From a phage: DNA of 64,000 nucleotides. Made by a program: the position numbers and the translations under genes. The notes below the pieces were generated by a model. The model was given only the letters and a program-made list of their open reading frames with translations. It had not been told where the DNA came from and ran no database searches. Location of the stretch: the NCBI GenBank assembly GCA_014687725.1, contig GCA_014687725.1_4094.1; one strand, 5' to 3'. Positions within the stretch are counted from its first letter, which is position 1. Each line of letters begins with the position of its first letter. Below are positions 1 through 9,420 of this stretch, piece by piece.

Positions 1-59
1 TTGACTATGTTATTATGACTCCAATCTTTGACACTGCTTACTATGATTCTTTGAAATAA
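1..59 (+). CDS. 3' end of an upstream ORF (partial, runs off window start)
   Basis: Open frame from window edge to TAA at ~57-59; no start visible. Confidence 0.2.
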   Translation, partial: DYVIMTPIFDTAYYDSLK

Positions 60-70
60 GGATAACTTAT

Positions 71-247
71 ATGAAACTACGTACTCGTAATCGACTGATG
101 GATGCACTGTACCATGAACAGCTTTCACTGAATGAAGTGAAGCGTCAGTTAATGTACACATATCAGTTTCCCGCTCGCATTGCAAAACAACGTGCTAAAG
201 AATTGCTGAAAGAAGCAATCGAGTACTGGGAATCTGATTCGTACTAA
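71..247 (+). CDS. hypothetical small protein (58 aa)
   Basis: ATG with upstream AGGA; below ORF-track size cutoff; compact spacing to next gene. Confidence 0.35.
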   Translation: MKLRTRNRLMDALYHEQLSLNEVKRQLMYTYQFPARIAKQRAKELLKEAIEYWESDSY

Positions 248-251
248 CATT

Positions 252-623
252 ATGAATATAGATTTGAAAGGTGCAACCCGAACTGTTATCCTCATTGGGG
301 AATATGCTATCAAGATTCCAACCTTTAAAAGTTGGAAGCTATTCTTAACAGGGATGATAGCTAACCTCAATGAACGTTCGTGGATGCAGTACTCCAATCG
401 TAGTGATAGTAGTATCTGCCCTACGTTGTGGTCATCATGTACTGGACTAGTAACTGTACAGAAACGTTGTAAGCCAGTACAACATAGGGGTTTATTTTGG
501 GTGGAGTTGTGTGCTTTAGCATTGAATTCAGAGTTAAGTACTGACTTCTTCTATTCAGATGCGAAGCCAGAAAACTTTGGGTATCTGGGTGGTAAGTTAG
601 TTAAACTTGATTATGGAGATTAA
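252..623 (+). CDS. mini protein-kinase-like protein (123 aa)
   Basis: Motifs GEYAIKIP and SDAKPENFGY...LVKLDYGD resemble kinase VAIK, catalytic-loop and DFG elements; same family as 43180-43764. Confidence 0.45.
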   Translation: MNIDLKGATRTVILIGEYAIKIPTFKSWKLFLTGMIANLNERSWMQYSNRSDSSICPTLWSSCTGLVTVQKRCKPVQHRGLFWVELCALALNSELSTDFFYSDAKPENFGYLGGKLVKLDYGD

Positions 624-624
624 T

Positions 625-894
625 ATGTACGCACTGTATAATAAAGAAAAGAAACGATTTGCTAAGGTTGAAATTTCGATTGATACATTTGATATGTTGG
701 AGTACTGTATTGTAACGGACCTATATGCTAACTTGTATTACGTTCTTGATGACGTATCAGTACTGCAACGATTGCTTGAGAATTCCAAAAGTCAATGCCA
801 AGGCATCCATGATGGTTCATCTTATGAAACACCTGAGTGTTCCTACGGCTATCTGGACGGGTATGAGATTGTGAAGTTGGGGATCATTGAATAA
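625..894 (+). CDS. hypothetical protein
   Basis: Track ORF 607-894 begins at TTG; ATG at 625 has GGAG 6 nt upstream. Confidence 0.45.
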   Translation: MYALYNKEKKRFAKVEISIDTFDMLEYCIVTDLYANLYYVLDDVSVLQRLLENSKSQCQGIHDGSSYETPECSYGYLDGYEIVKLGIIE

Positions 895-900
895 AGAAAA

Positions 901-933
901 GGGTTGACTTCGGTCAGCCCTTTTTGCTATAAT
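901..933 (+). promoter_or_regulatory. bifunctional intrinsic terminator / sigma70-like promoter element
   Basis: GGGTTGAC-TTCG-GTCAGCCC hairpin (UUCG loop) + TTTTT; embedded -35 TTGACT, 18-nt spacer, -10 TATAAT; repeated at 2183, 3904, ~36811, ~40502, ~43778, ~46036. Confidence 0.6.
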
Positions 934-961
934 TATTTCATCAAGACGAGAGGATGAATAC

Positions 962-1477
962 ATGACACGCATTAACTTAGTACACGTTAAAGAACTTGCT
1001 GACCAACATCTGATGGCTGAATATCGTGAACTCCCACGTGTATTTGGTGCTGTACAAAAACACGTTCAAGCACGTAAGCGTGTACGTGATTTCAAAATTA
1101 ACAGTACTTATCTGTTAGGTTCAGGTCATGTGACATTCTTTTACGACAAGTTGCTGTACTTACAGAAGCGTCATATCGATATTGTTAACGAATGTTTGCG
1201 TCGTGGTATGAAGATTCAAAACACTGAAGTAAACGACATTAGCGGCTTCCCTGCTGAGTTTTGTAATGACTACGTACCAACGGAGTCAGAGATTAAAATG
1301 TCTCGTGATCGTTTGATTGAGAAGCTCCAGATGAAGCCTACGTGGTATAAGTTTACTGATGTTGAATGTCCACAGTACGTTAAAGATATGCAGAACGTAA
1401 GTAGTAAGAACGAATCTAGTACTGATATGTTCGACGAAATTGAAGAACAAATCAAAGATGAAATGAATAATTATTAA
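962..1477 (+). CDS. denV: pyrimidine-dimer DNA glycosylase / endonuclease V
   Basis: N-terminus [45 protein letters not shown] matches T4 endonuclease V from memory; extra acidic C-terminal tail. Confidence 0.88.
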
Positions 1478-1515
1478 AGGAAAGGGTTGACTTCGGTTAC
1501 ACAAAGGAACATAAC

Positions 1516-1710
1516 ATGTTATTAGTATATTCAAAGCGTTTCTGGATTTCTTTTATTGTACTATCGCTAATCGGCTTCGGTTTGAGTATACTCTTTTCGT
1601 GGGATGAATTGGGTACATGGTATTATGAAGTCCCGTGGTACATGAAGATAGCTCCTTGTTATGCGGCATTGTTCGTGTCATTCCTTATTGTTGTCTTCAG
1701 CGAGGATTAG
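1516..1710 (+). CDS. small membrane protein (64 aa)
   Basis: Two hydrophobic segments; ATG start. Confidence 0.45.
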   Translation: MLLVYSKRFWISFIVLSLIGFGLSILFSWDELGTWYYEVPWYMKIAPCYAALFVSFLIVVFSED

Positions 1711-1761
1711 TTGATGTAGTATGTGCTACACCAAAGTATTTGGATATTTTAGATATAAACA

Positions 1762-1790
1762 TTGACACCTGTTCTATCTTTCTGTATTAT
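1762..1790 (+). promoter_or_regulatory. sigma70-like promoter
   Basis: TTGACA, 17-nt spacer, TATTAT about 30 nt upstream of 1817 gene. Confidence 0.45.
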
Positions 1791-1816
1791 GTACATCACC
1801 AAATGAGGAATACAAC

Positions 1817-2176
1817 ATGGCATCTTTAAGTGAAATCGCAGAATACAACCCACTAACAATCTCAACAATTCAACGTACAAAAACTTTTTATTTCCGTCCT
1901 GCTGATGGATGGAAACGTGGAATGAATGGTGACTATCGAGTACTGGAAGATTCACTAATCGAGCGTATCAACTCTGAACTACAGAAGTATGAAGGTGTTA
2001 AAGTTGTGCGTTCAACTTCTCGTTATTTTGAGTACTACATTGAGTCTTCAACTGTAAATGAAAACTCATCATTCTCGGTGGACAACACTGATATTCTTCG
2101 TAATGCTGTTGGTCTTTTATGCAGGATTGCAGAAGAAATTGGATTAACTATCACCACAATGAGTGAGTTAGAATAA
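1817..2176 (+). CDS. hypothetical protein
   Basis: ATG with GAGGA upstream; followed by terminator/promoter element. Confidence 0.55.
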   Translation: MASLSEIAEYNPLTISTIQRTKTFYFRPADGWKRGMNGDYRVLEDSLIERINSELQKYEGVKVVRSTSRYFEYYIESSTVNENSSFSVDNTDILRNAVGLLCRIAEEIGLTITTMSELE

Positions 2177-2182
2177 CATAAA

Positions 2183-2215
2183 GGGTTGACTTCGGTCAGC
2201 CCTTTTTGCTATAAT
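2183..2215 (+). promoter_or_regulatory. terminator/promoter element (copy 2)
   Basis: Same hairpin + T-run + TATAAT as 901-933. Confidence 0.6.
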
Positions 2216-2241
2216 TATTTTATCGAAACGAGAGGTAATAC

Positions 2242-2475
2242 ATGAAACTATCTTTTATACGTTTAGCAGAATTCTTCGGTACTGATATTATTACTTTACA
2301 ACAAATTGCAGACAATACTTCATTAAGTACACAAGAAGTACTTGACTTGGATGTAATTAAGTGCGATAATACTTCCATCGATTACAAAGAAGGTCTTGTC
2401 GAAAAAGATAAGATTCAGGCTAAGATTAATGGTGCTGGACGGGTTCAGTACTGGAAAGGAGTTTTAAGTAAATGA
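2242..2475 (+). CDS. hypothetical protein
   Basis: ATG after GAGAGG; ATGA overlap with next gene. Confidence 0.5.
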   Translation: MKLSFIRLAEFFGTDIITLQQIADNTSLSTQEVLDLDVIKCDNTSIDYKEGLVEKDKIQAKINGAGRVQYWKGVLSK

Positions 2476-3896
2476 AAATTTATATTGATAAATTTGGAAC
2501 GACTTATGAATATTATGATTATACACATTATAATTCATATATACAAAAAAATCATAACCAAATGTCACCTTATTTGCATTATGAAGATTTAATGGAACTA
2601 TTCTCTAAAAATTTAAATTCTATTAAATTTATTGGTTTTAAAGATCCAACATGGAAAAGTTCACATACGCATGTGTATTTTGAATATGATAATATGGTAT
2701 ATGAACATTCAATATCAAATATCAAAACAAAATTCGCTGATCATAGATATAAACCAGGTAGAATATGTAGAACCTTGGAACAAATTATAAATGAGTCCAT
2801 TTATATATTTAAAAAATATGATAAATTTAATTTTCATAGCATTGCATCATTTAATGGAGCACGAACTATAATCAATTATACAATTGAAGGACGTGAAAGA
2901 ATATTTTCTATATCATTCAATTCATTAATAAAAGATTTTAAAGGGGGAAGCCCATGTTATTCATATGAAGAAGTAGAAAATATATCTATAAAAAAATTAA
3001 ATGAACATAATTTGAGATTTATCTCAATTAGTAAATTTAATGGTGTGTTTAGTTGTATTGAATATGAACAACCAACTCAGAAAGGAAAAAAATATGTTGA
3101 TTTTAATATATTAATCTATAATGAATGGAAAGGTAATCTACCGAATATAACTAATGAAGAGGTGAATAATCGAATTTCAGAAAAAATGAAAAAACTAAAT
3201 ATCAATGAATATGAAATTGTAGAATATAACAGTACTAGGAGCATGGTTGAATATACAGTTGATGATATTTCATATACAACTAGTTACGATAAGATTATGC
3301 ATCCAACTTGGAAAGGTAATCCAAGATATACAAAAGAAAGAATAATAAAATTGTCGAAAAAATATTGCAAGGGTAAAAAATTTCAATTTAATAAAATAAT
3401 TGGTAATGTTAAAGGAATTAATACTATCATTGAATTAGAACTTGAAAATGGTATGTTTATATATCCAAAATTTATACAATTAAAAGGAGGTTCTGACTTT
3501 AATACATCCACTGATGGTAAGATTTTAACAGAAATAATTTATCCTTTGTTCGACAATTATATCACACAAAAACGTTTTGAAAATTGTAGAAATCCTGAAA
3601 CTGGATACTTGTTGCCATATGATTTGTATGTTCCAGAATTTAATTTATTATTAGAAAAAGATGGAGTGCAACATTACAATCCAACAGCATATTTTAATAA
3701 AACATATGAATCATATTTGAAATTGAGAGAGAGAGATGAATTTAAAAACAAATATGCCATATCAAATGGTTATAATTTCATGCGAATAGCAGATTATGAA
3801 GATCATGAAAAAATATTGAAATCTTTCCTTAAACTCATTGAAGAGAATCCAGGAAAGCAAATTGTGCAGATCTATGGTGAAGTACAAATTATCTAA
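2472..3896 (+). CDS. AT-rich protein with C-terminal Vsr/DUF559-like (PD-(D/E)xK) nuclease motif
   Basis: C-terminus YDLYVPEFNLLLEKDGVQHY ... NGYNFMRIADYE resembles the DUF559/Vsr endonuclease pattern; markedly lower GC than neighbours. Confidence 0.55.
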   Translation: MKIYIDKFGTTYEYYDYTHYNSYIQKNHNQMSPYLHYEDLMELFSKNLNSIKFIGFKDPTWKSSHTHVYFEYDNMVYEHSISNIKTKFADHRYKPGRICRTLEQIINESIYIFKKYDKFNFHSIASFNGARTIINYTIEGRERIFSISFNSLIKDFKGGSPCYSYEEVENISIKKLNEHNLRFISISKFNGVFSCIEYEQPTQKGKKYVDFNILIYNEWKGNLPNITNEEVNNRISEKMKKLNINEYEIVEYNSTRSMVEYTVDDISYTTSYDKIMHPTWKGNPRYTKERIIKLSKKYCKGKKFQFNKIIGNVKGINTIIELELENGMFIYPKFIQLKGGSDFNTSTDGKILTEIIYPLFDNYITQKRFENCRNPETGYLLPYDLYVPEFNLLLEKDGVQHYNPTAYFNKTYESYLKLRERDEFKNKYAISNGYNFMRIADYEDHEKILKSFLKLIEENPGKQIVQIYGEVQII

Positions 3897-3903
3897 AACA
3901 AAA

Positions 3904-3936
3904 GGGTTGACTTCGGTCGGCCCTTTTTGCTATAAT
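3904..3936 (+). promoter_or_regulatory. terminator/promoter element (copy 3)
   Basis: GGGTTGACTTCGGTCGGCCC + TTTTT + TATAAT. Confidence 0.6.
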
Positions 3937-3964
3937 TATTTCATCAACTGATGAGGATAACGAA

Positions 3965-4735
3965 ATGACCAGAGAAGCACGTAGCATTCAAATCCAGAAA
4001 AACTTCAACTCCATGATGGTTGCTCTTGAGTGTTTGCTCGACGATAGCAGTACTGTAAAAAGTATGGTTGTCAGCGGTGCACCTGGTGTTGGTAAGACTT
4101 ACACCCTGTCACAACGCCTCCAGAAAGCTCATGACGCAGCAGAATGGAACGTAGCCACTATCAGTGGTAAGATGACTACTCTTGCTCTGTATGAAGTTCT
4201 GTACAAGAATCGTCACAGCACTAATGTATTAGTACTTGATGATATGGATAGCATCTTTGAATCAGAAGATGGTATGAACCTACTTAAAGCTGTTTTGGAT
4301 AGTGGTAAGCGTACTGTATCTTATATGACTAGCTCTAAGTACTTGAGCACTAACGGCATTCCTAATAGCTTTGATTTTAATGGTCGCATCGTATTCATTA
4401 CTAACAAAGATTTAGCGTTAGATGCTAAAGCTAAAACTAAAATGTCTGCTCATTATGCTGCTCTTATGTCTCGTTCTGTGTACGTGGATTTACAGATTCA
4501 GACTAAAAGTGATATCATGATTCATATTGAAAATGTAATGACTAAGACTAATATTCTTGCATCTAAAGGTGTTAACAGTAACGGCAGTAAAGCAATTCTG
4601 AACTGGATGTTAAAACATGAAGATAATCTTCGTGCACCATCCCTGCGTATGCCTTTGTTGATTTCAGCAGTATATAACAACAATCCGTATGATTGGGAAG
4701 AACAATGTGAAAACTTGTTCCTTGAGAAAATCTAA
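3965..4735 (+). CDS. P-loop NTPase (AAA-like ATPase)
   Basis: Walker A GAPGVGKT and Walker B VLVLDD. Confidence 0.7.
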   Translation: MTREARSIQIQKNFNSMMVALECLLDDSSTVKSMVVSGAPGVGKTYTLSQRLQKAHDAAEWNVATISGKMTTLALYEVLYKNRHSTNVLVLDDMDSIFESEDGMNLLKAVLDSGKRTVSYMTSSKYLSTNGIPNSFDFNGRIVFITNKDLALDAKAKTKMSAHYAALMSRSVYVDLQIQTKSDIMIHIENVMTKTNILASKGVNSNGSKAILNWMLKHEDNLRAPSLRMPLLISAVYNNNPYDWEEQCENLFLEKI

Positions 4736-4802
4736 TTACATATGTTGACAGTACTACCATCGTGTAGTACTATAACTTAATATTCACCACCGGAGATACG
4801 AT

Positions 4803-5144
4803 ATGCTTGAGTTTTTTAATTCAGATACAATGCTTGGTATCACGCTAATTTACATGTTTGTATTTTTGTGTTATCATTCAATTGTAATTAGTCTGTGGTA
4901 TTTTAAAAGGAAAATTGTTTTTAAATTGTATTCGGATGATAATGTAGTCTTAGTTTTATATAGTATTATCCAAGGTGGGTTTATTTTATTTGGTGTGATG
5001 ACATATGCGATTTACATGTTACAAATTGATAATACACCACACATTACACAATATCTTGTGTTTTCAGGTCTAATCGTGTGGTTGTTGGTGTGTAGCATGT
5101 ACTTTATTATTAAAGCTCGTGATAGAATTAAAGGGGATTTCTAA
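4803..5144 (+). CDS. small multipass membrane protein, tandem family M (1/8)
   Basis: 3-4 hydrophobic helices; WYFKRK motif; close paralog of next gene. Confidence 0.6.
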   Translation: MLEFFNSDTMLGITLIYMFVFLCYHSIVISLWYFKRKIVFKLYSDDNVVLVLYSIIQGGFILFGVMTYAIYMLQIDNTPHITQYLVFSGLIVWLLVCSMYFIIKARDRIKGDF

Positions 5145-5482
5145 TGTTAACATTCTTTAAGTCAGATACAATGCTTAGTATTACTTTGATTTATCTGTTT
5201 GGTTTTTTCTTTTATCATGCACTAGTTGTAGTACTATGGTATTTTAAAAAGAAAATTGTTTTTAAACTGTATCCAGTGAGGAATTCATCACTAGTTCTTT
5301 ACACACTTGTTCAAGGTTTGTTTGCAATTGTTGGTCTTATGGCACACTTAATTTATTGTGCTAATCCTCACTTGAACTCAATCTCACAATATATTGTATT
5401 CTTTGGGTTGTTCATTTGGTTAGTTGTATACTTAATCCATCTCATTATTCATGGTAGAGATAAAATTCGCGGAGACTTCTAA
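5144..5482 (+). CDS. small multipass membrane protein, family M (2/8)
   Basis: Near-identical N-terminus to 4803 gene; TAATG coupling. Confidence 0.6.
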   Translation: MLTFFKSDTMLSITLIYLFGFFFYHALVVVLWYFKKKIVFKLYPVRNSSLVLYTLVQGLFAIVGLMAHLIYCANPHLNSISQYIVFFGLFIWLVVYLIHLIIHGRDKIRGDF

Positions 5483-5829
5483 TGTTTGAAGCTTATCTTG
5501 AGTTTTTAAGGAGTAGTCCAGTTGCACATTCAATTGCAGGGATTATTCTAACAGGTTATGTAACATTTTGGGTAGTTATGTTTCTAGGATGGTATTTTAA
5601 ACGACAATTCTATAAGCGTAATGGTGAAGATTTTATGAATTCTTTCATTAATCAATCGTTGTTTGCATCAACATTGATTGCATGTATTGTGGCTGTTCTA
5701 GCCGGAAAAGCACTACCTGCTTTTTCAGTCGTTTATGGAACAATTGGTATGATATGTGTAGTTTTTCACTTGATCATTAAACTTTGTTGTGTTATGATTG
5801 ACCTTCGAAACAAGATACCGGAGGAATGA
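5482..5829 (+). CDS. small multipass membrane protein, family M (3/8)
   Basis: Hydrophobic, WYFKRQ motif; TAATG overlap. Confidence 0.55.
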   Translation: MFEAYLEFLRSSPVAHSIAGIILTGYVTFWVVMFLGWYFKRQFYKRNGEDFMNSFINQSLFASTLIACIVAVLAGKALPAFSVVYGTIGMICVVFHLIIKLCCVMIDLRNKIPEE

Positions 5830-6164
5830 TGGAATATTTTTTACACTTACTGCCGTGGTATATGAAAGTTAGTACCATGTACTATATTATTAGTGCTGGA
5901 TTCTACTTTCTGATGTGGTTCTTTAAACGACCAATTTCAGTATTCATCGCTGATAACATGCTGCAATTAAAATTACACGCATGGTTTGGTCTGGCGATGA
6001 TTATGCCTATTATTCACTACTCAATGATTAGTAGAGGTTTCCGTTCTAATGGTGAACCAATTGTATTAGTATTCTATTGGGGTTCAACTATTGCATATGT
6101 AAGTTTGTTGTTGTTCCCAGTCGTTCATAAGTTACGTGCTAAAGTTCCTGATGCGAGGTACTAA
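5826..6164 (+). CDS. small multipass membrane protein, family M (4/8)
   Basis: Hydrophobic, WFFKR motif; ATGA overlap. Confidence 0.55.
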   Translation: MMEYFLHLLPWYMKVSTMYYIISAGFYFLMWFFKRPISVFIADNMLQLKLHAWFGLAMIMPIIHYSMISRGFRSNGEPIVLVFYWGSTIAYVSLLLFPVVHKLRAKVPDARY

Positions 6165-6478
6165 TGGATATAGTAACATTGATTTACACGTTGTATTCAT
6201 TCTATTTCATTATGTGTTGGGTTGGATTTTTATTTGTACTCAAGATGTTTGATTATGTTGAAAAACAGATAAAAGAATTTTGTATTCCTTTTATCGGTTC
6301 AACCATTATTAGTGTTTCTTGTGTGTATTTTTTGGTTTTTGATCCACCAGATAACACTGCAATGATTGACTTGATGTTACTACCAACAACTGTTACTTTT
6401 TTATGTAGTCTGATGCCGCCGATTAGCCGTGGACTAACAGAATTTAGACGCAATCAAAAGCGTAAACGAGGGATGTAA
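6164..6478 (+). CDS. small multipass membrane protein, family M (5/8)
   Basis: Hydrophobic; C-terminal basic tail QKRKRG. Confidence 0.5.
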   Translation: MDIVTLIYTLYSFYFIMCWVGFLFVLKMFDYVEKQIKEFCIPFIGSTIISVSCVYFLVFDPPDNTAMIDLMLLPTTVTFLCSLMPPISRGLTEFRRNQKRKRGM

Positions 6479-6846
6479 TGGAAATTGCTCTTATTATCTT
6501 AACTGCTATGTTGTTTATTAGTACTGTGGTTATAATTGGTAAATTCTTTTGTGTATCATTTTTAGAAACGGTATACGATGAAATTGCTGATGATTATGAA
6601 CTACAAGCCGGATTTTTCATTACGTATTGGCTTAGTTTATTTTGTCTAGTCATTGCTTGGATTTTACATATCTTTAAATGGGGTATGGTAGACGGTGATC
6701 CTATTATGGCAATTATTGTTCTAGTGTTTGGTATCCTTGGTGGTGCAGTGCATAATCTAATGGTTATCTGGCAAACTGTTCAATATGTTTTGGTTCCCTA
6801 TTTCGAAAAGATGCACAGTACAATTAAAAAACGTAAACGAGGTTAG
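6478..6846 (+). CDS. small multipass membrane protein, family M (6/8)
   Basis: Hydrophobic; C-terminal KKRKRG like previous. Confidence 0.5.
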   Translation: MEIALIILTAMLFISTVVIIGKFFCVSFLETVYDEIADDYELQAGFFITYWLSLFCLVIAWILHIFKWGMVDGDPIMAIIVLVFGILGGAVHNLMVIWQTVQYVLVPYFEKMHSTIKKRKRG

Positions 6847-6847
6847 T

Positions 6848-7210
6848 ATGAACGGGATAGAATTATCTTTCGTTGGTCAATTACTAGTAATGGCGTATAC
6901 ATTTATCTTCTCACTGAATGCATTCGTGTGCATTGGGAAGTACTTCCATAAGCGACCATTATCAAATATATATGATGTAATCCAAAAGAGATATAGTCCA
7001 GCATATACTGTGTTGGGTACAGTATTCAATTTTGGTTTTATTGTATTAATAATTGGACTGTTCACATCCTCTTTGAATACAATAACCTTCGGTCTTATGA
7101 TATGTTCATTGGTATTAGCCGTAATTATATGTTGTTTAGTACTGCACCTTGTGGTACTATTGTATATAAAGATCTCTGAAATCCACCAACGTTTGGGTAT
7201 GAGGAAATAA
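6848..7210 (+). CDS. small multipass membrane protein, family M (7/8)
   Basis: Start moved from track 6785 to in-frame ATG 6848 right after previous stop. Confidence 0.5.
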   Translation: MNGIELSFVGQLLVMAYTFIFSLNAFVCIGKYFHKRPLSNIYDVIQKRYSPAYTVLGTVFNFGFIVLIIGLFTSSLNTITFGLMICSLVLAVIICCLVLHLVVLLYIKISEIHQRLGMRK

Positions 7211-7211
7211 T

Positions 7212-7583
7212 ATGAGTTACCGTGAGATATTTTCCATTATTTCAATTATTATGTTCAGTACTGGAACACTGGTATGGTTATTATACTTCTTCTGTATTAA
7301 TCCAGTGTATAATATGTTATGTAATATTAAATCAAGTGCCGGATATATCACTTTTATGGTCTTTATGGGATATTATTGTCTAAGCATTTTAGGTGTTGTT
7401 TTGGTTGTTATATTTGATGTGGGACCAAATAGTGATGGTATGGAAATACATGAATTAATAACCATGTTTGGATGTATGATACCAACAGCACTACTGTTTG
7501 TAGCTACTGGTAGTGGATTGATAAAATTATATAATTATTTAAAATCCATTCATAATTCCATTCATAATAAGCGTATGTCATAA
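7212..7583 (+). CDS. small multipass membrane protein, family M (8/8)
   Basis: Hydrophobic; GAGGAAATAATATG start context. Confidence 0.5.
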   Translation: MSYREIFSIISIIMFSTGTLVWLLYFFCINPVYNMLCNIKSSAGYITFMVFMGYYCLSILGVVLVVIFDVGPNSDGMEIHELITMFGCMIPTALLFVATGSGLIKLYNYLKSIHNSIHNKRMS

Positions 7584-7587
7584 TAAA

Positions 7588-7613
7588 AATCCAGTACTAT
7601 TAAGTACTGGATT
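7588..7613. terminator. perfect 11-bp inverted repeat hairpin AATCCAGTACT-atta-AGTACTGGATT
   Basis: Perfect palindrome between membrane array and next gene; no T-run, so terminator assignment tentative. Confidence 0.35.
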
Positions 7614-7624
7614 AATAAGGAGTT

Positions 7625-8287
7625 ATGATGAAAACAAAATTAGGTTTGTTTTATAAAAATTATTTCGTTAAACAGCGTAAATTTATAAAAAAATATTTCT
7701 CTGGTGAGAAGTCTAGTCCTATAATTTTTAAAAGACCAAGTTATAATACTTACTTAGCTGGTGCTAAACAGTCTAAGAAATTTATTACTCTTTTAAATAA
7801 AAACAAAATTAAAGCTTCTTATGTTGAAACGAGAAGAAACTCATCAATAACTCCTGGTGATTTTATTGAGTACGGATGTTTCAATATTAAGTACAATGAT
7901 AATACATACTTTATGGATATTGATTGTAATACATCCAATCTTTTTAACATTGTAGTAAATCCATTAAAACAATATAATGTTTATGGTGATTCTATTATCA
8001 AATTAATCAAAAACAAAGATAGCTTTGATTTTGAAATAAATGTTTTAGATGATAATTTTGACGAAGTACCAGTAAACCCTGAAATCTGTGATATTTTAAA
8101 CAGTTTAAAAGGTAGTACCTACAATATATCATCTGATTTAATGTTTCAGTACTCATTAATCCATAAAGATATTGAAAAGTATATTGAATGCTCCAAAATT
8201 TTGAATTATCTTTACGATGAATTTAAAAAGAGTTCTAAAATAACTGCATACACTTTGTACAATATTCCTAAAATGGTGAATCTTTGA
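7625..8287 (+). CDS. hypothetical AT-rich protein carrying family-C signature (LMFQYSLIHKD)
   Basis: ATG after AGGAG; motif matches EEYFQxSLVxD family in 54-64 kb. Confidence 0.5.
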   Translation: MMKTKLGLFYKNYFVKQRKFIKKYFSGEKSSPIIFKRPSYNTYLAGAKQSKKFITLLNKNKIKASYVETRRNSSITPGDFIEYGCFNIKYNDNTYFMDIDCNTSNLFNIVVNPLKQYNVYGDSIIKLIKNKDSFDFEINVLDDNFDEVPVNPEICDILNSLKGSTYNISSDLMFQYSLIHKDIEKYIECSKILNYLYDEFKKSSKITAYTLYNIPKMVNL

Positions 8288-9420
8288 CAAATACAGTACT
8301 GGCAACTCCACCGTCTGTAATATATTGTCCAGTACTGTAAATTTGTATACCATCGGTTAAGTAAGTTCTGTATAAAGTTGCTGTAACATATACGTTATTC
8401 ATATTCATCTCTATTGGTAGTACACATTTGGTATAGGCCGACACATCTGTTTGTGTACCTATACCCAATTGACCTGCGTTATCGCCTGTGTTATAACCAG
8501 TTGCGTAAACACCTAATGAAGTTATAATATGATTAGAAAAATATGAATAACCCACACTGCTTCTTATTATATCACCTGGTGCTTGTGTTGTTTGTCTTAA
8601 CGAAATATATGTTTGTGATGTAGAACCATTTGCTAACTGACCAAAGTACTGTCCACCACCATGATATGCAAATAATTTATTAGTACTATTATTACTTGCT
8701 ATAGCAAAAGCGAAGTAACTTGAGTTTGTTGTATAATCTTTCACCGTATAGGTATTAGTTATTTGAGAACATAACGTGTACTTTGAATATAACGTCATGT
8801 CGGTTGTACCTACGCCTGATATTGCACCAGTATAATACAATCTCCCATCGGTTCCAATAAATCCTTGCATAAGAAAATTTGCCAGTATTTTGGATGGTGT
8901 TACTCCAGTAGGTACTGTTCCTTGTACAAATGATGAAAGTGAATCGGTACTTCTACCATTTCCCAGTTGTCCATAACTACCATAACCAGTATTCCATATC
9001 GTGTTGTCTGTACATAATACGCTTAATGCACCTGCACTAACTGCAATTTGTTTTATTGTTTTTCCTAGGGCTGTTATTCTATCAAACACTATCTTTGCAG
9101 AAGCCCACGTAGTAGACTTATCAGTTGATAAACCCAATGATGCACCATTCCCAGCGTACCACATCGTATTATCTTTCTTTTTTATTAAAGTTGACTCATA
9201 CCCGCACCCATATATCTTCTACGTTTGTATTGCATAAAACCCATTGGGTCTGTGTTATAATATTACCTATACCCATTTGCCCAAACTCTTGAGAGCCTCT
9301 ACTGTATAGTGTCCCGTCTGACATAAGGGCAAAAACTGTCGTATCAGATGAAGATATTTTGGTAACAGTAGGGGGTAGGTTCTTTTTTGATGATGTGATA
9401 ATTCTTCCAAAGGGTAGCAT
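8268..9420 (-). pseudogene. frameshifted MLPFGR-family RCC1-like propeller paralog (1/13)
   Basis: N-terminal ORF 9196-9432 (MLPFGRI...DIWVRV*) and C-terminal ORF 8268-9164 join by a 1-nt shift in a GGG run near ~9204-9210 to give DIW-CGYESTLIKKKDNTMWYAG, matching gene 2. Confidence 0.5.

What the first reader, a model, noticed from the sequence alone, without database searches (positions are those of the whole stretch)
2472..3896. Low-GC 474-aa gene ending in a Vsr/DUF559-like nuclease motif: possible selfish or defence-related insert
This ORF is visibly more AT-rich than its neighbours (long runs of AAA/TAT codons). Its C-terminus (YDLYVPEFNLLLEKDGVQHY...NGYNFMRIADYE) follows the PD-(D/E)xK-type DUF559/Vsr pattern. 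Composition skew plus a nuclease domain is typical of homing endonucleases or acquired defence/anti-defence genes.
Basis: partly seen in the sequence, partly recalled or inferred. Interest (0 to 1): 0.5.

Follow-up and report, generated by a model that had tools for sequence, protein, structure and literature searches.

The report
Free-standing Vsr-like homing endonuclease gene
This AT-rich 474-codon gene in a jumbo E. coli phage is most likely a selfish "homing endonuclease" gene that copies itself between related phages; it is an ordinary kind of element, though its DNA-binding repeats have unusually lost their zinc-binding cysteines.

Summary
ORF 2472..3896 (+) encodes 474 aa at 24.8% GC, against 35.3% for the window. 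It is the lowest-GC stretch of its length in all 64 kb.

The N-terminal 340 aa form five alpha/beta repeats. They are homologous to CapR-type zinc-finger arrays of relatives but lack every zinc-ligand cysteine.

The window comes from an Asteriusvirus jumbo coliphage. The gene occurs in only three database phages. Two Salmonella phages have an exactly empty site. Other relatives carry four or more different endonuclease genes at the same nucleotide position. In phage JNE01 the gene and the upstream 77-aa gene form a 99.6%-identical island inside 60-87% flanks.

Verdict: a free-standing homing endonuclease gene in a contested insertion hotspot. No defence-system similarity was found. Cleavage activity and target site are untested. 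This is a new member of a known kind, already labelled "homing endonuclease" in two GenBank records. Interest is low to moderate.

The parts
2472..3896 (+). Homing-endonuclease-like ORF, 474 aa, 24.8% GC
   Evidence: PHROG 559 (3e-15) and 9084 'homing endonuclease' (6.7e-14)
2568..3500 (+). Five tandem ~60-aa alpha-beta-beta-beta-alpha repeats (aa 33-343). They are cysteine-free homologues of CapR-type zinc-finger DNA-binding units. Repeat 3 is modelled with low confidence.
   Evidence: alignment A1; AF2 full-length model; colinear BLASTP to Zn-finger arrays of P0002 (1e-10) and P0017 (6e-11); Cys statistics
3507..3800 (+). Vsr-like PD-(D/E)xK nuclease core (aa 346-443) with invariant D384, E395, D397/G398, H401, D422, K425
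3801..3893 (+). Conserved C-terminal helix plus beta-hairpin tail (…SFLKLIEENPGKQIVQIYGEVQII), specific to the jumbo-phage subfamily. The last ~150 bp of the ORF (3745-3896) are about 80-93% identical in DNA (100-bp bins) to G17's otherwise dissimilar occupant.
2242..2475 (+). Upstream 77-aa gene of unknown function (phrog_34150). Its stop overlaps the ORF's ATG (ATGA). It was co-transferred with the ORF in JNE01 but occurs without it in two Salmonella phages.
2456..2461 (+). AAGGAG Shine-Dalgarno-like sequence 10 nt upstream of the ORF's ATG, inside the conserved 3' end of the 77-aa gene. It is also present at empty sites.
   Evidence: sequence
2183..2215 (+). Hairpin (UUCG loop, U-run) overlapping a TTGACT-N18-TATAAT promoter-like site: left bracket of the two-gene unit
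3904..3936 (+). Second copy of the same hairpin/promoter element, starting 8 nt after the ORF's stop codon: right bracket. It serves the downstream AAA-like gene.
2231..3911 (+). Island 99.6% identical to phage JNE01 (7 mismatches) inside flanks of 60-87% identity: the laterally transferred segment

Best explanation
The ORF is a free-standing homing endonuclease gene (HEG) sitting in an intergenic insertion hotspot of Asteriusvirus jumbo coliphages.

The protein is modular. Five tandem CapR-like repeats, here without zinc ligands, are inferred to read a long DNA target. A C-terminal Vsr-like PD-(D/E)xK domain with a complete set of invariant acidic and histidine residues is inferred to cut DNA. 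It probably acts as a dimer, because a Vsr-type site cuts one strand.

The gene has no promoter of its own. It is read from the promoter upstream of the 77-aa gene and is translationally coupled to that gene (ATGA overlap, with the Shine-Dalgarno sequence inside the upstream gene). Transcription ends at the hairpin that also carries the next gene's promoter.

In a mixed infection the enzyme is inferred to cleave a related genome that lacks it, near this locus. Recombinational repair from the carrier genome then copies the ORF, with a variable length of flank, into the cut genome.

Shown: fold, intact invariant residues, modular architecture, exact presence/absence, allelic replacement, and a near-identical island in divergent flanks. 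Inferred: DNA cleavage, target site, dimerisation, and homing itself.

For: Invariant residues: D384, E395, G398, H401, D422 and K425 are invariant in a 44-sequence alignment and intact here. The D-to-H spacing is 17, as for D196 to H213 in I-Bth0305I.

Family: 7680 representative clusters carry the module, almost always at the C-terminus behind Zn-finger arrays. BFVD matches include proteins named 'Homing endonuclease' and 'Group I intron protein'. PHROG 9084 'homing endonuclease' scores 6.7e-14.

Distribution: the full-length gene is in only 3 phage records, out of about 39 Escherichia/Salmonella records that match the flanks.

Junctions: homology breaks at 2471/2472 and resumes at 3896-3900. 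SD-2_S15 and SD-15_S21 have an exactly empty site.

Allelic occupants: at least four other endonuclease-type genes start within 1-2 nt of the same point.

Transfer: the JNE01 island 2231-3911 is 99.6% identical inside 60-87% flanks. Each carrier has its own left-flank haplotype up to about 2231, 2419 or 2425.

Composition: it is the lowest-GC stretch in the window.

Precedent: promoter-less free-standing HEG cassettes in T4, and replacement of mobC/mobE by segH/hef at the same sites. Hef is placed in the Vsr-like family.
Against: No biochemical evidence exists, and no target site can be named. No SNP in the flanks is shared by all carriers and absent from all non-carriers.

Homologous recombination between the conserved 77-aa gene and the conserved hairpin/tail could move any cargo without a nuclease.

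CapR needs its four cysteines to bind DNA, and this protein has none at those positions. Repeat 3 is poorly modelled. The DNA-binding array could therefore be impaired.

HMMER profile searches do not link the module to I-Bth0305I by sequence. Pfam finds no domain.
Confidence: 0.75

Rival explanations
1. It is a decaying or already inactive HEG. The gene arrived by homing or recombination recently, but its DNA-binding array has lost zinc coordination, so it now persists only by linkage on its way to deletion.
For: All conserved Cys positions are replaced. CapR's cysteines are required for DNA binding. Repeat 3 has pLDDT 37-65. The extreme AT drift fits relaxed selection. Decay at this slot is seen elsewhere: E9.1 has a truncated 449-aa copy of the phAPEC6-type gene followed by a separate 193-aa CDS.
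Against: The 474-codon frame is intact in four genomes at 99.2-100% protein identity. All catalytic-type residues are intact. Four of the five repeats fold confidently without zinc. The near-identical island in JNE01 indicates very recent spread. A few other family members also lack Cys motifs.
Confidence: 0.12
2. It is a domesticated or dual-use nuclease used in conflict, for example to cut competing phages, satellites or host DNA (defence, anti-defence or exclusion), rather than to spread itself.
For: There are precedents of HEG-derived proteins co-opted in phage-satellite conflict (Odn, CapR) and of a T-even HEG that aids immune evasion (title and abstract listed). Accessory-gene position and low GC would also fit a moron.
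Against: PADLOC gives no match for the protein or its neighbours. The gene is dispensable in most relatives. The slot holds interchangeable endonuclease genes of two families, which fits selfish turnover better than a conserved function. Marker exclusion is in any case a by-product of homing.
Confidence: 0.1
3. It is a Vsr-type DNA repair nickase acting on mismatches, next to the denV repair gene.
For: The best structural match is Vsr. denV lies 1 kb upstream.
Against: Only 14% identity to Vsr. A 340-aa sequence-reading repeat array is not part of Vsr. The gene is sporadic and is replaced by unrelated endonucleases. The module's relatives are HEG-like proteins.
Confidence: 0.02

Closest known systems
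I-Bth0305I and the 'EDxHD' (Vsr-like) homing endonuclease family, including phage Hef (Taylor et al. 2011, PMC3239194)
   Different: No sequence-profile link to 3R3P was detected. The N-terminus is five CapR-like repeats rather than NUMOD/HTH motifs. The gene is free-standing, not intron-encoded. It has an extra conserved C-terminal helix/hairpin tail. The loop between H401 and D422 is longer (21 residues against 9).
CapR/DUF723/DUF4379 zinc-finger arrays of T5orf172 homing endonucleases (Netter 2021, PMC8096241; Barth 2023, PMC10448857)
   Same: A 'beads-on-a-string' array of ~60-aa units precedes a nuclease domain. There is evidence of module shuffling between HEGs. The window protein's repeats align colinearly with Zn-finger units of relatives that Pfam calls CapR.
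   Different: The nuclease is Vsr-like, not T5orf172. All CxxC/CxC ligands are missing. The Pfam CapR model does not hit the protein, and the profile-profile probability is only 8.8%.
Free-standing seg/mob homing endonuclease genes of T4-like phages (Edgell 2010, PMC2988022)
   Same: A promoter-less cassette sits between conserved genes and uses an upstream promoter. Distribution is sporadic, different HEGs replace each other at one site (segH/hef for mobC/mobE), and flanks are co-converted. Searches show the same features here.
   Different: The nuclease family differs (Vsr-like rather than GIY-YIG or HNH). The host is a jumbo phage lineage. The target gene is unknown.
Vsr very-short-patch repair endonuclease and DUF559 proteins
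   Same: Same core fold and the same motif pattern: D…(E/V)-x-(D/H)-G…H…D.
   Different: 14% identity to Vsr. Pfam does not detect DUF559. The modular DNA-binding array and the mobile-element context are not features of repair enzymes.

Membership tests
Vsr-like / EDxHD homing endonucleases | Catalytic domain with the Vsr endonuclease fold | tested here: met
Vsr-like / EDxHD homing endonucleases | Conserved catalytic Asp (Mg ligand), His (general base) and second Asp | tested here: met
   D384, H401 and D422 are invariant in 44- and 150-sequence alignments and present here. The D-to-H spacing of 17 equals D196 to H213. Residue-by-residue superposition was not inspected.
Vsr-like / EDxHD homing endonucleases | Detectable sequence homology to family members such as I-Bth0305I | tested here: not met
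   The profile of A3 against PDB sequences does not retrieve 3r3p at E<=10. Only AbaSI (0.15) and 3hrl (1.4) appear. phmmer finds nothing.
Vsr-like / EDxHD homing endonucleases | N-terminal NUMOD/HTH DNA-binding region | tested here: not met
   No NUMOD or HTH hit in Pfam. The N-terminus is five CapR-like repeats.
Vsr-like / EDxHD homing endonucleases | Site-specific double-strand cleavage of the allele that lacks the gene | not testable with these tools
   Needs enzyme assays.
Free-standing homing endonuclease gene (intronless homing) | Intergenic position between genes conserved in relatives | tested here: met
   It lies between the 77-aa gene and the AAA-like gene. Breakpoints are at 2471/2472 and 3896-3900.
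Free-standing homing endonuclease gene (intronless homing) | Sporadic presence among close relatives, with intact empty sites | tested here: met
   Three carrier records. Exact empty sites in SD-2_S15 and SD-15_S21.
Free-standing homing endonuclease gene (intronless homing) | Evidence of lateral movement with flank co-conversion | tested here: met
   JNE01 island 2231-3911 at 99.6% inside 60-87% flanks. Carrier-specific left haplotypes.
Free-standing homing endonuclease gene (intronless homing) | Super-Mendelian inheritance in mixed infection that depends on the nuclease | not testable with these tools
   Needs phage crosses.
CapR homology domain (PF21817) arrays | Match to the Pfam CapR model | tested here: not met
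   No CapR hit at E<=1 in the window protein. Relatives P0005, P0006, P0029 and 121Q gp221 do hit.
CapR homology domain (PF21817) arrays | CxxC…CxC zinc-ligand motif | tested here: not met
   Zero CxxC/CxC motifs in aa 1-342. V/N/L/S/N occupy columns that are 89-100% Cys in the subfamily.
CapR homology domain (PF21817) arrays | Homology of the repeat units to Zn-finger units of family members | tested here: met
   BLASTP of the N-terminus against P0017 gives 6e-11 and against P0002 gives 1e-10, both colinear over Cys-bearing units. The profile-profile comparison is inconclusive.
Pfam DUF559 / Vsr | Pfam model hit above threshold | tested here: not met
   None in the window protein. More distant relatives give only sub-threshold DUF559 hits and mostly sub-threshold DUF2726 hits; one DUF2726 hit passes its cut-off.
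Known anti-phage defence systems | Match to a PADLOC model, or defence-type neighbours | tested here: not met
   No hit for the protein or the 77-aa gene. The AAA-like neighbour gives only P-loop-level hits.

The most novel reading that the evidence does not exclude
Two novel readings remain open. First, the site between the 77-aa gene and the AAA-like gene may be a multi-allelic battleground. At least five endonuclease genes, from two nuclease families and with shuffled DNA-binding arrays, displace one another at the same nucleotide. Second, the window's allele may be a functional zinc-independent version of the CapR-type DNA-reading repeat. That would be a metal-free modular DNA-binding scaffold fused to a Vsr-like cutter.
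Probability: 0.3. Interest if true: 0.5.

Novelty: new member of a known kind. Interest (0 to 1): 0.3.

Why it matters
The finding adds a well-delimited example of a free-standing Vsr-like homing endonuclease in jumbo coliphages. Empty, filled and alternatively filled alleles are all available, so it is a ready-made system for crosses that test homing and competition between homing endonucleases.

If the cysteine-free repeats still bind DNA, CapR-type modules can work without zinc. That matters for how such arrays evolve new specificities, and possibly for engineering. For genome annotation, it shows that this Pfam-invisible module is one of the commonest phage nuclease domains (7680 representative clusters).

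Tried and rejected
1. Pfam and NCBIfam on the protein gave nothing significant.
2. phmmer against PDB sequences gave nothing. The profile of the domain against PDB sequences gave only marginal hits to AbaSI and 3hrl, and none to 3r3p.
3. hhalign of the five repeats against CapR repeats gave 8.8% probability, which is inconclusive.
4. An HMM built from the five repeats and searched against family members gave no significant hit.
5. Foldseek of the full-length multi-domain model against the PDB gave no hit below E 0.1. The repeat fold therefore has no named structural match.
6. My guess by eye that the 121Q/PBECO4/phAPEC6 occupants end in a T5orf172/GIY-YIG module was not confirmed by Pfam. They are only classed as phrog_681 'endonuclease'.
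7. I looked for a flank SNP diagnostic of carriers, as a clue to the target or immunity site. None exists in the left flank.
8. PADLOC search for defence similarity found nothing.
9. The Hef paper (PMC1275590) is not held.
10. I considered the hairpin/promoter element itself as the target and rejected it. It occurs three times within 4 kb, including in carrier genomes.

Full report
**Observation.** The ORF is real and at the stated coordinates: 2472..3896 on the + strand, ATG start, 474 aa. Its GC content is 24.8% against 35.3% for the whole window. Neighbouring 400-bp windows run at 35-41%. Among all 1425-bp sliding windows of the 64 kb it is the minimum, about 3.3 SD below the mean.

**Where the window comes from.** Megablast of bases 1-6000 places the window in the Asteriusvirus jumbo coliphages (the 121Q/PBECO4 group). 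The nearest record is Escherichia phage BAU.Micro_ELP-22, at 98.7% over the full 6 kb.

**The C-terminal module is a Vsr-like nuclease domain.**
- Pfam, NCBIfam and phmmer against PDB sequences find nothing significant in the protein. PHROGs gives phrog_559 (3e-15, whole length) and phrog_9084 'homing endonuclease' (6.7e-14, aa 362-449).
- An exhaustive phmmer search with aa 337-474 finds 7680 representative clusters at E<=0.001. The match is almost always at the C-terminus of 200-530-aa proteins.
- In alignments of 150 and 44 of these, D384, E395, G398, H401, D422 and K425 are invariant or nearly so (D397 is conserved in 84%). All are intact in the window protein.
- AlphaFold2 on the 44-sequence alignment gives a model of aa 351-474 with pLDDT 95.7 and pTM 0.88.
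- The spacing D384 to H401 (17) equals D196 to H213 in I-Bth0305I, as given by Taylor et al. 2011.
- By sequence profile the module is not linked to 3r3p. Only marginal hits to AbaSI (E 0.15) and 3hrl (E 1.4) appear, both over the D…E-x-D-G-x-x-H motif.
- In the viral structure library the domain has 109 matches at E<=0.001. They include proteins named 'Homing endonuclease' (Enterococcus phage EFP01), 'Group I intron protein' (Lactobacillus phage LpeD), and DUF559- or DUF2726-domain proteins.

**The N-terminal 340 aa are a cysteine-free CapR-like repeat array.**
- By eye and by alignment the region holds five ~60-aa repeats.
- The full-length AlphaFold model has mean pLDDT 79.9. Its pTM of 0.39 is as expected for independent beads. 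It shows five alpha-beta-beta-beta-alpha units, with the third at low confidence, followed by the nuclease domain and a helix plus beta-hairpin tail.
- Relatives that share the nuclease module carry arrays of CapR (PF21817), DUF4379 treble-clef and DUF723 zinc-finger units.
- The window protein's N-terminus aligns colinearly with those arrays: P0002 at E 1e-10 and P0017 at E 6e-11. For P0017 the figure is 9e-9 against the 161-sequence set, where the best shuffled hit was 0.002. P0006 aligns through two Pfam-called CapR units. Repeat 2 lies on P0017's CxxC…CxxC unit.
- The direct tests are negative or inconclusive. Pfam CapR does not hit, hhalign gives 8.8%, and an HMM of the five repeats finds nothing significant.
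- The protein has no CxxC or CxC motif N-terminal to the nuclease. In the subfamily alignment it has V, N, L, S and N where 89-100% of relatives have Cys. Only 5 of 135 family representatives have no such motif, and two of those five are this protein and its near-identical twin P0001.
- CapR is a Zn-finger DNA-binding domain derived from HEGs, and its four cysteines are required for DNA binding. Arrays of such units are the 'beads-on-a-string' DNA-binding regions of T5orf172 HEGs.
- No solved structure matched the whole model.

**The locus.**
- Only three phage records encode the full protein, at 99.2-99.8% identity: SHEFM2K, ELP-22 and JNE01. All other tblastn matches are below 60% and cover only the C-terminal part.
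- Pairwise blastn against relatives shows homology stopping at 2471/2472 and resuming at 3896-3900 in nearly all of them.
- Two Salmonella phages (SD-2_S15, SD-15_S21) have an exactly empty site: …GTTTTAAGTAAA|AAAAGGGTTGACTTCGG….
- In the window the ORF's ATG overlaps the stop of the upstream 77-aa gene (ATGA). An AAGGAG lies 10 nt upstream, inside that conserved gene.
- The ORF's stop is followed within a few bases by a UUCG-loop hairpin with a U-run (-16.8 kcal/mol, z -4.6). That hairpin overlaps a TTGACT-N18-TATAAT site serving the downstream AAA-like gene.
- This hairpin/promoter element occurs only three times in the 64 kb, at 901, 2183 and 3904. The 77-aa gene and the ORF therefore form one promoter-to-terminator unit.

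**A contested hotspot.** In 19 genomes the slot is in at least six states:
- the 474-aa gene: window, ELP-22, SHEFM2K, JNE01;
- a 372-aa gene with the same Vsr-like module (53% identity over the last 109 aa) but a different N-terminus: G17 and JP4, plus Sharanji by tblastn;
- a 487-aa gene: 121Q, UB;
- a 628-aa gene: phAPEC6, with a truncated 449-aa copy followed by a separate 193-aa CDS in E9.1;
- a 379-aa gene: PBECO4;
- exactly empty: the two Salmonella phages;
- the slot and the 77-aa gene both absent: UE-S1, EC.P1, ph0011, fEgEco12.

WPEC3 and CMSTMSU lack the anchor sequences and were not classified.

The non-Vsr occupants belong to phrog_681 'endonuclease' and carry CapR or treble-clef units. 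G17, phAPEC6 and PBECO4 genes start within 1-2 nt of the same position. Modules are shuffled between occupants. G17 and PBECO4 share an N-terminus but differ in their C-terminal module. The last ~150 bp of the window ORF (3745-3896) are about 80-93% identical in DNA, by 100-bp bin, to G17's otherwise dissimilar gene. All occupants are low in GC, at 29-32%.

**Evidence of movement.**
- In JNE01 the segment 2231-3911 (the 77-aa gene plus the ORF) has 7 mismatches in about 1.68 kb (99.6%). The flanks are 60-87% identical, and the downstream AAA-like gene is the divergent UE-S1/ph0011 allele.
- UE-S1 looks like that background without the two genes.
- A SNP map of the left flank shows that each carrier keeps its own haplotype until about 2425 (ELP-22), 2419 (SHEFM2K) or 2231 (JNE01). 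This points to separate recombination events.
- No flank SNP is diagnostic of carriers, so the target or immunity site cannot be inferred.

**Interpretation.** These are the hallmarks of a free-standing homing endonuclease gene as described for T4-like phages. Such genes are promoter-less cassettes between conserved genes, are sporadically distributed, replace one another at a site (segH/hef for mobC/mobE) and co-convert flanks. Their cleavage sites often lie hundreds of bases from the gene. Taylor et al. place phage Hef in the Vsr-like 'EDxHD' family, so a free-standing Vsr-like HEG has precedent.

I therefore read the ORF as a free-standing Vsr-like HEG (confidence 0.75). Rivals:
- a decaying HEG whose DNA-binding array has lost zinc coordination (0.12);
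- a conflict nuclease, for defence, anti-defence or exclusion (0.10); PADLOC gives no support;
- a repair nickase (0.02).

Cleavage, target, dimerisation and homing are inferred, not shown.

**Novelty.** ELP-22 and SHEFM2K already annotate the gene as 'homing endonuclease' through PHROG 9084. The kind of element is known. What is new is modest: the pairing of a Vsr-like cutter with a cysteine-free CapR-like array, and a clearly multi-allelic hotspot with empty, filled and decayed states. Overall interest is 0.3.

Noticed in passing
window 901-933, 2183-2215, 3904-3936: A 33-bp element occurs three times, identical or with one mismatch. It combines a UUCG-loop terminator-like hairpin with a TTGACT-N18-TATAAT promoter-like site, inside ~75-bp intergenic repeats. 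These are the only copies in the 64 kb. The larger deletions in UE-S1, EC.P1, ph0011 and fEgEco12 join at or next to copies of the intergenic repeat that carries it, so it looks like a recombination substrate as well as a regulatory site.
   Followed up: partly
window ~895-960 (upstream of denV); L007 1407-1820, L015 2192-2605, L017 5729-6142, L010 1108-1521: In JP4, WPEC3, fEgEco12 and EC.P1 a 137-aa HNH endonuclease gene (phrog_2255, 9e-32) sits next to the first hairpin/promoter element, just upstream of denV. UB has a shorter 64-aa 'HNH endonuclease' CDS at that position. The window has no such gene, so this is a second HEG hotspot 1.5 kb away.
   Followed up: partly
L018 7558-9521 (phage E9.1): The phAPEC6-type 628-aa endonuclease gene appears broken in E9.1. 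A 449-aa ORF matches the phAPEC6 protein almost throughout and then diverges in its last ~20 residues before stopping. A separately annotated 193-aa 'endonuclease' CDS follows. This looks like a decaying HEG in the same slot.
   Followed up: partly
window 4803-7583: Eight tandem genes encode 104-141-aa proteins that look like multi-pass membrane proteins. The first two (4803-5144, 5144-5482) are clearly paralogous, and blastn shows about 80% cross-matches between them. Copy number varies among relatives.
   Followed up: no
window 7201-8401 (ORF 7625..8287, 220 aa) and 55701-56401 (ORF 55692..56084, 130 aa): These are the only other islands below 28% GC in the window. Both ORFs belong to PHROGs of unknown function (phrog_34359, phrog_29252) and have no Pfam hit. 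They could be further acquired genes.
   Followed up: partly
window 3965-4735: The downstream P-loop/AAA-like gene (phrog_1250) exists in two allele classes only 60-70% identical in DNA: the window/121Q/G17 type and the JNE01/UE-S1/ph0011 type. The 474-aa ORF is found next to both.
   Followed up: partly
window 962-1477 and 1366-1756: The denV (pyrimidine-dimer glycosylase) gene has a variable 3' end. phAPEC6, PBECO4 and SHEFM2K lack window 1366-1756 and encode a 144-aa protein. In the two Salmonella phages denV is fused in frame to the following 119-aa gene.
   Followed up: no
window 3801-3893 (aa 444-474): The tail …SFLKLIEENPGKQIVQIYGEVQII is almost invariant across the jumbo-phage subfamily, whatever the N-terminal array. 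It is modelled as a helix plus beta-hairpin at pLDDT ~97. It is a candidate dimerisation element and a candidate homology patch for allele exchange.
   Followed up: partly
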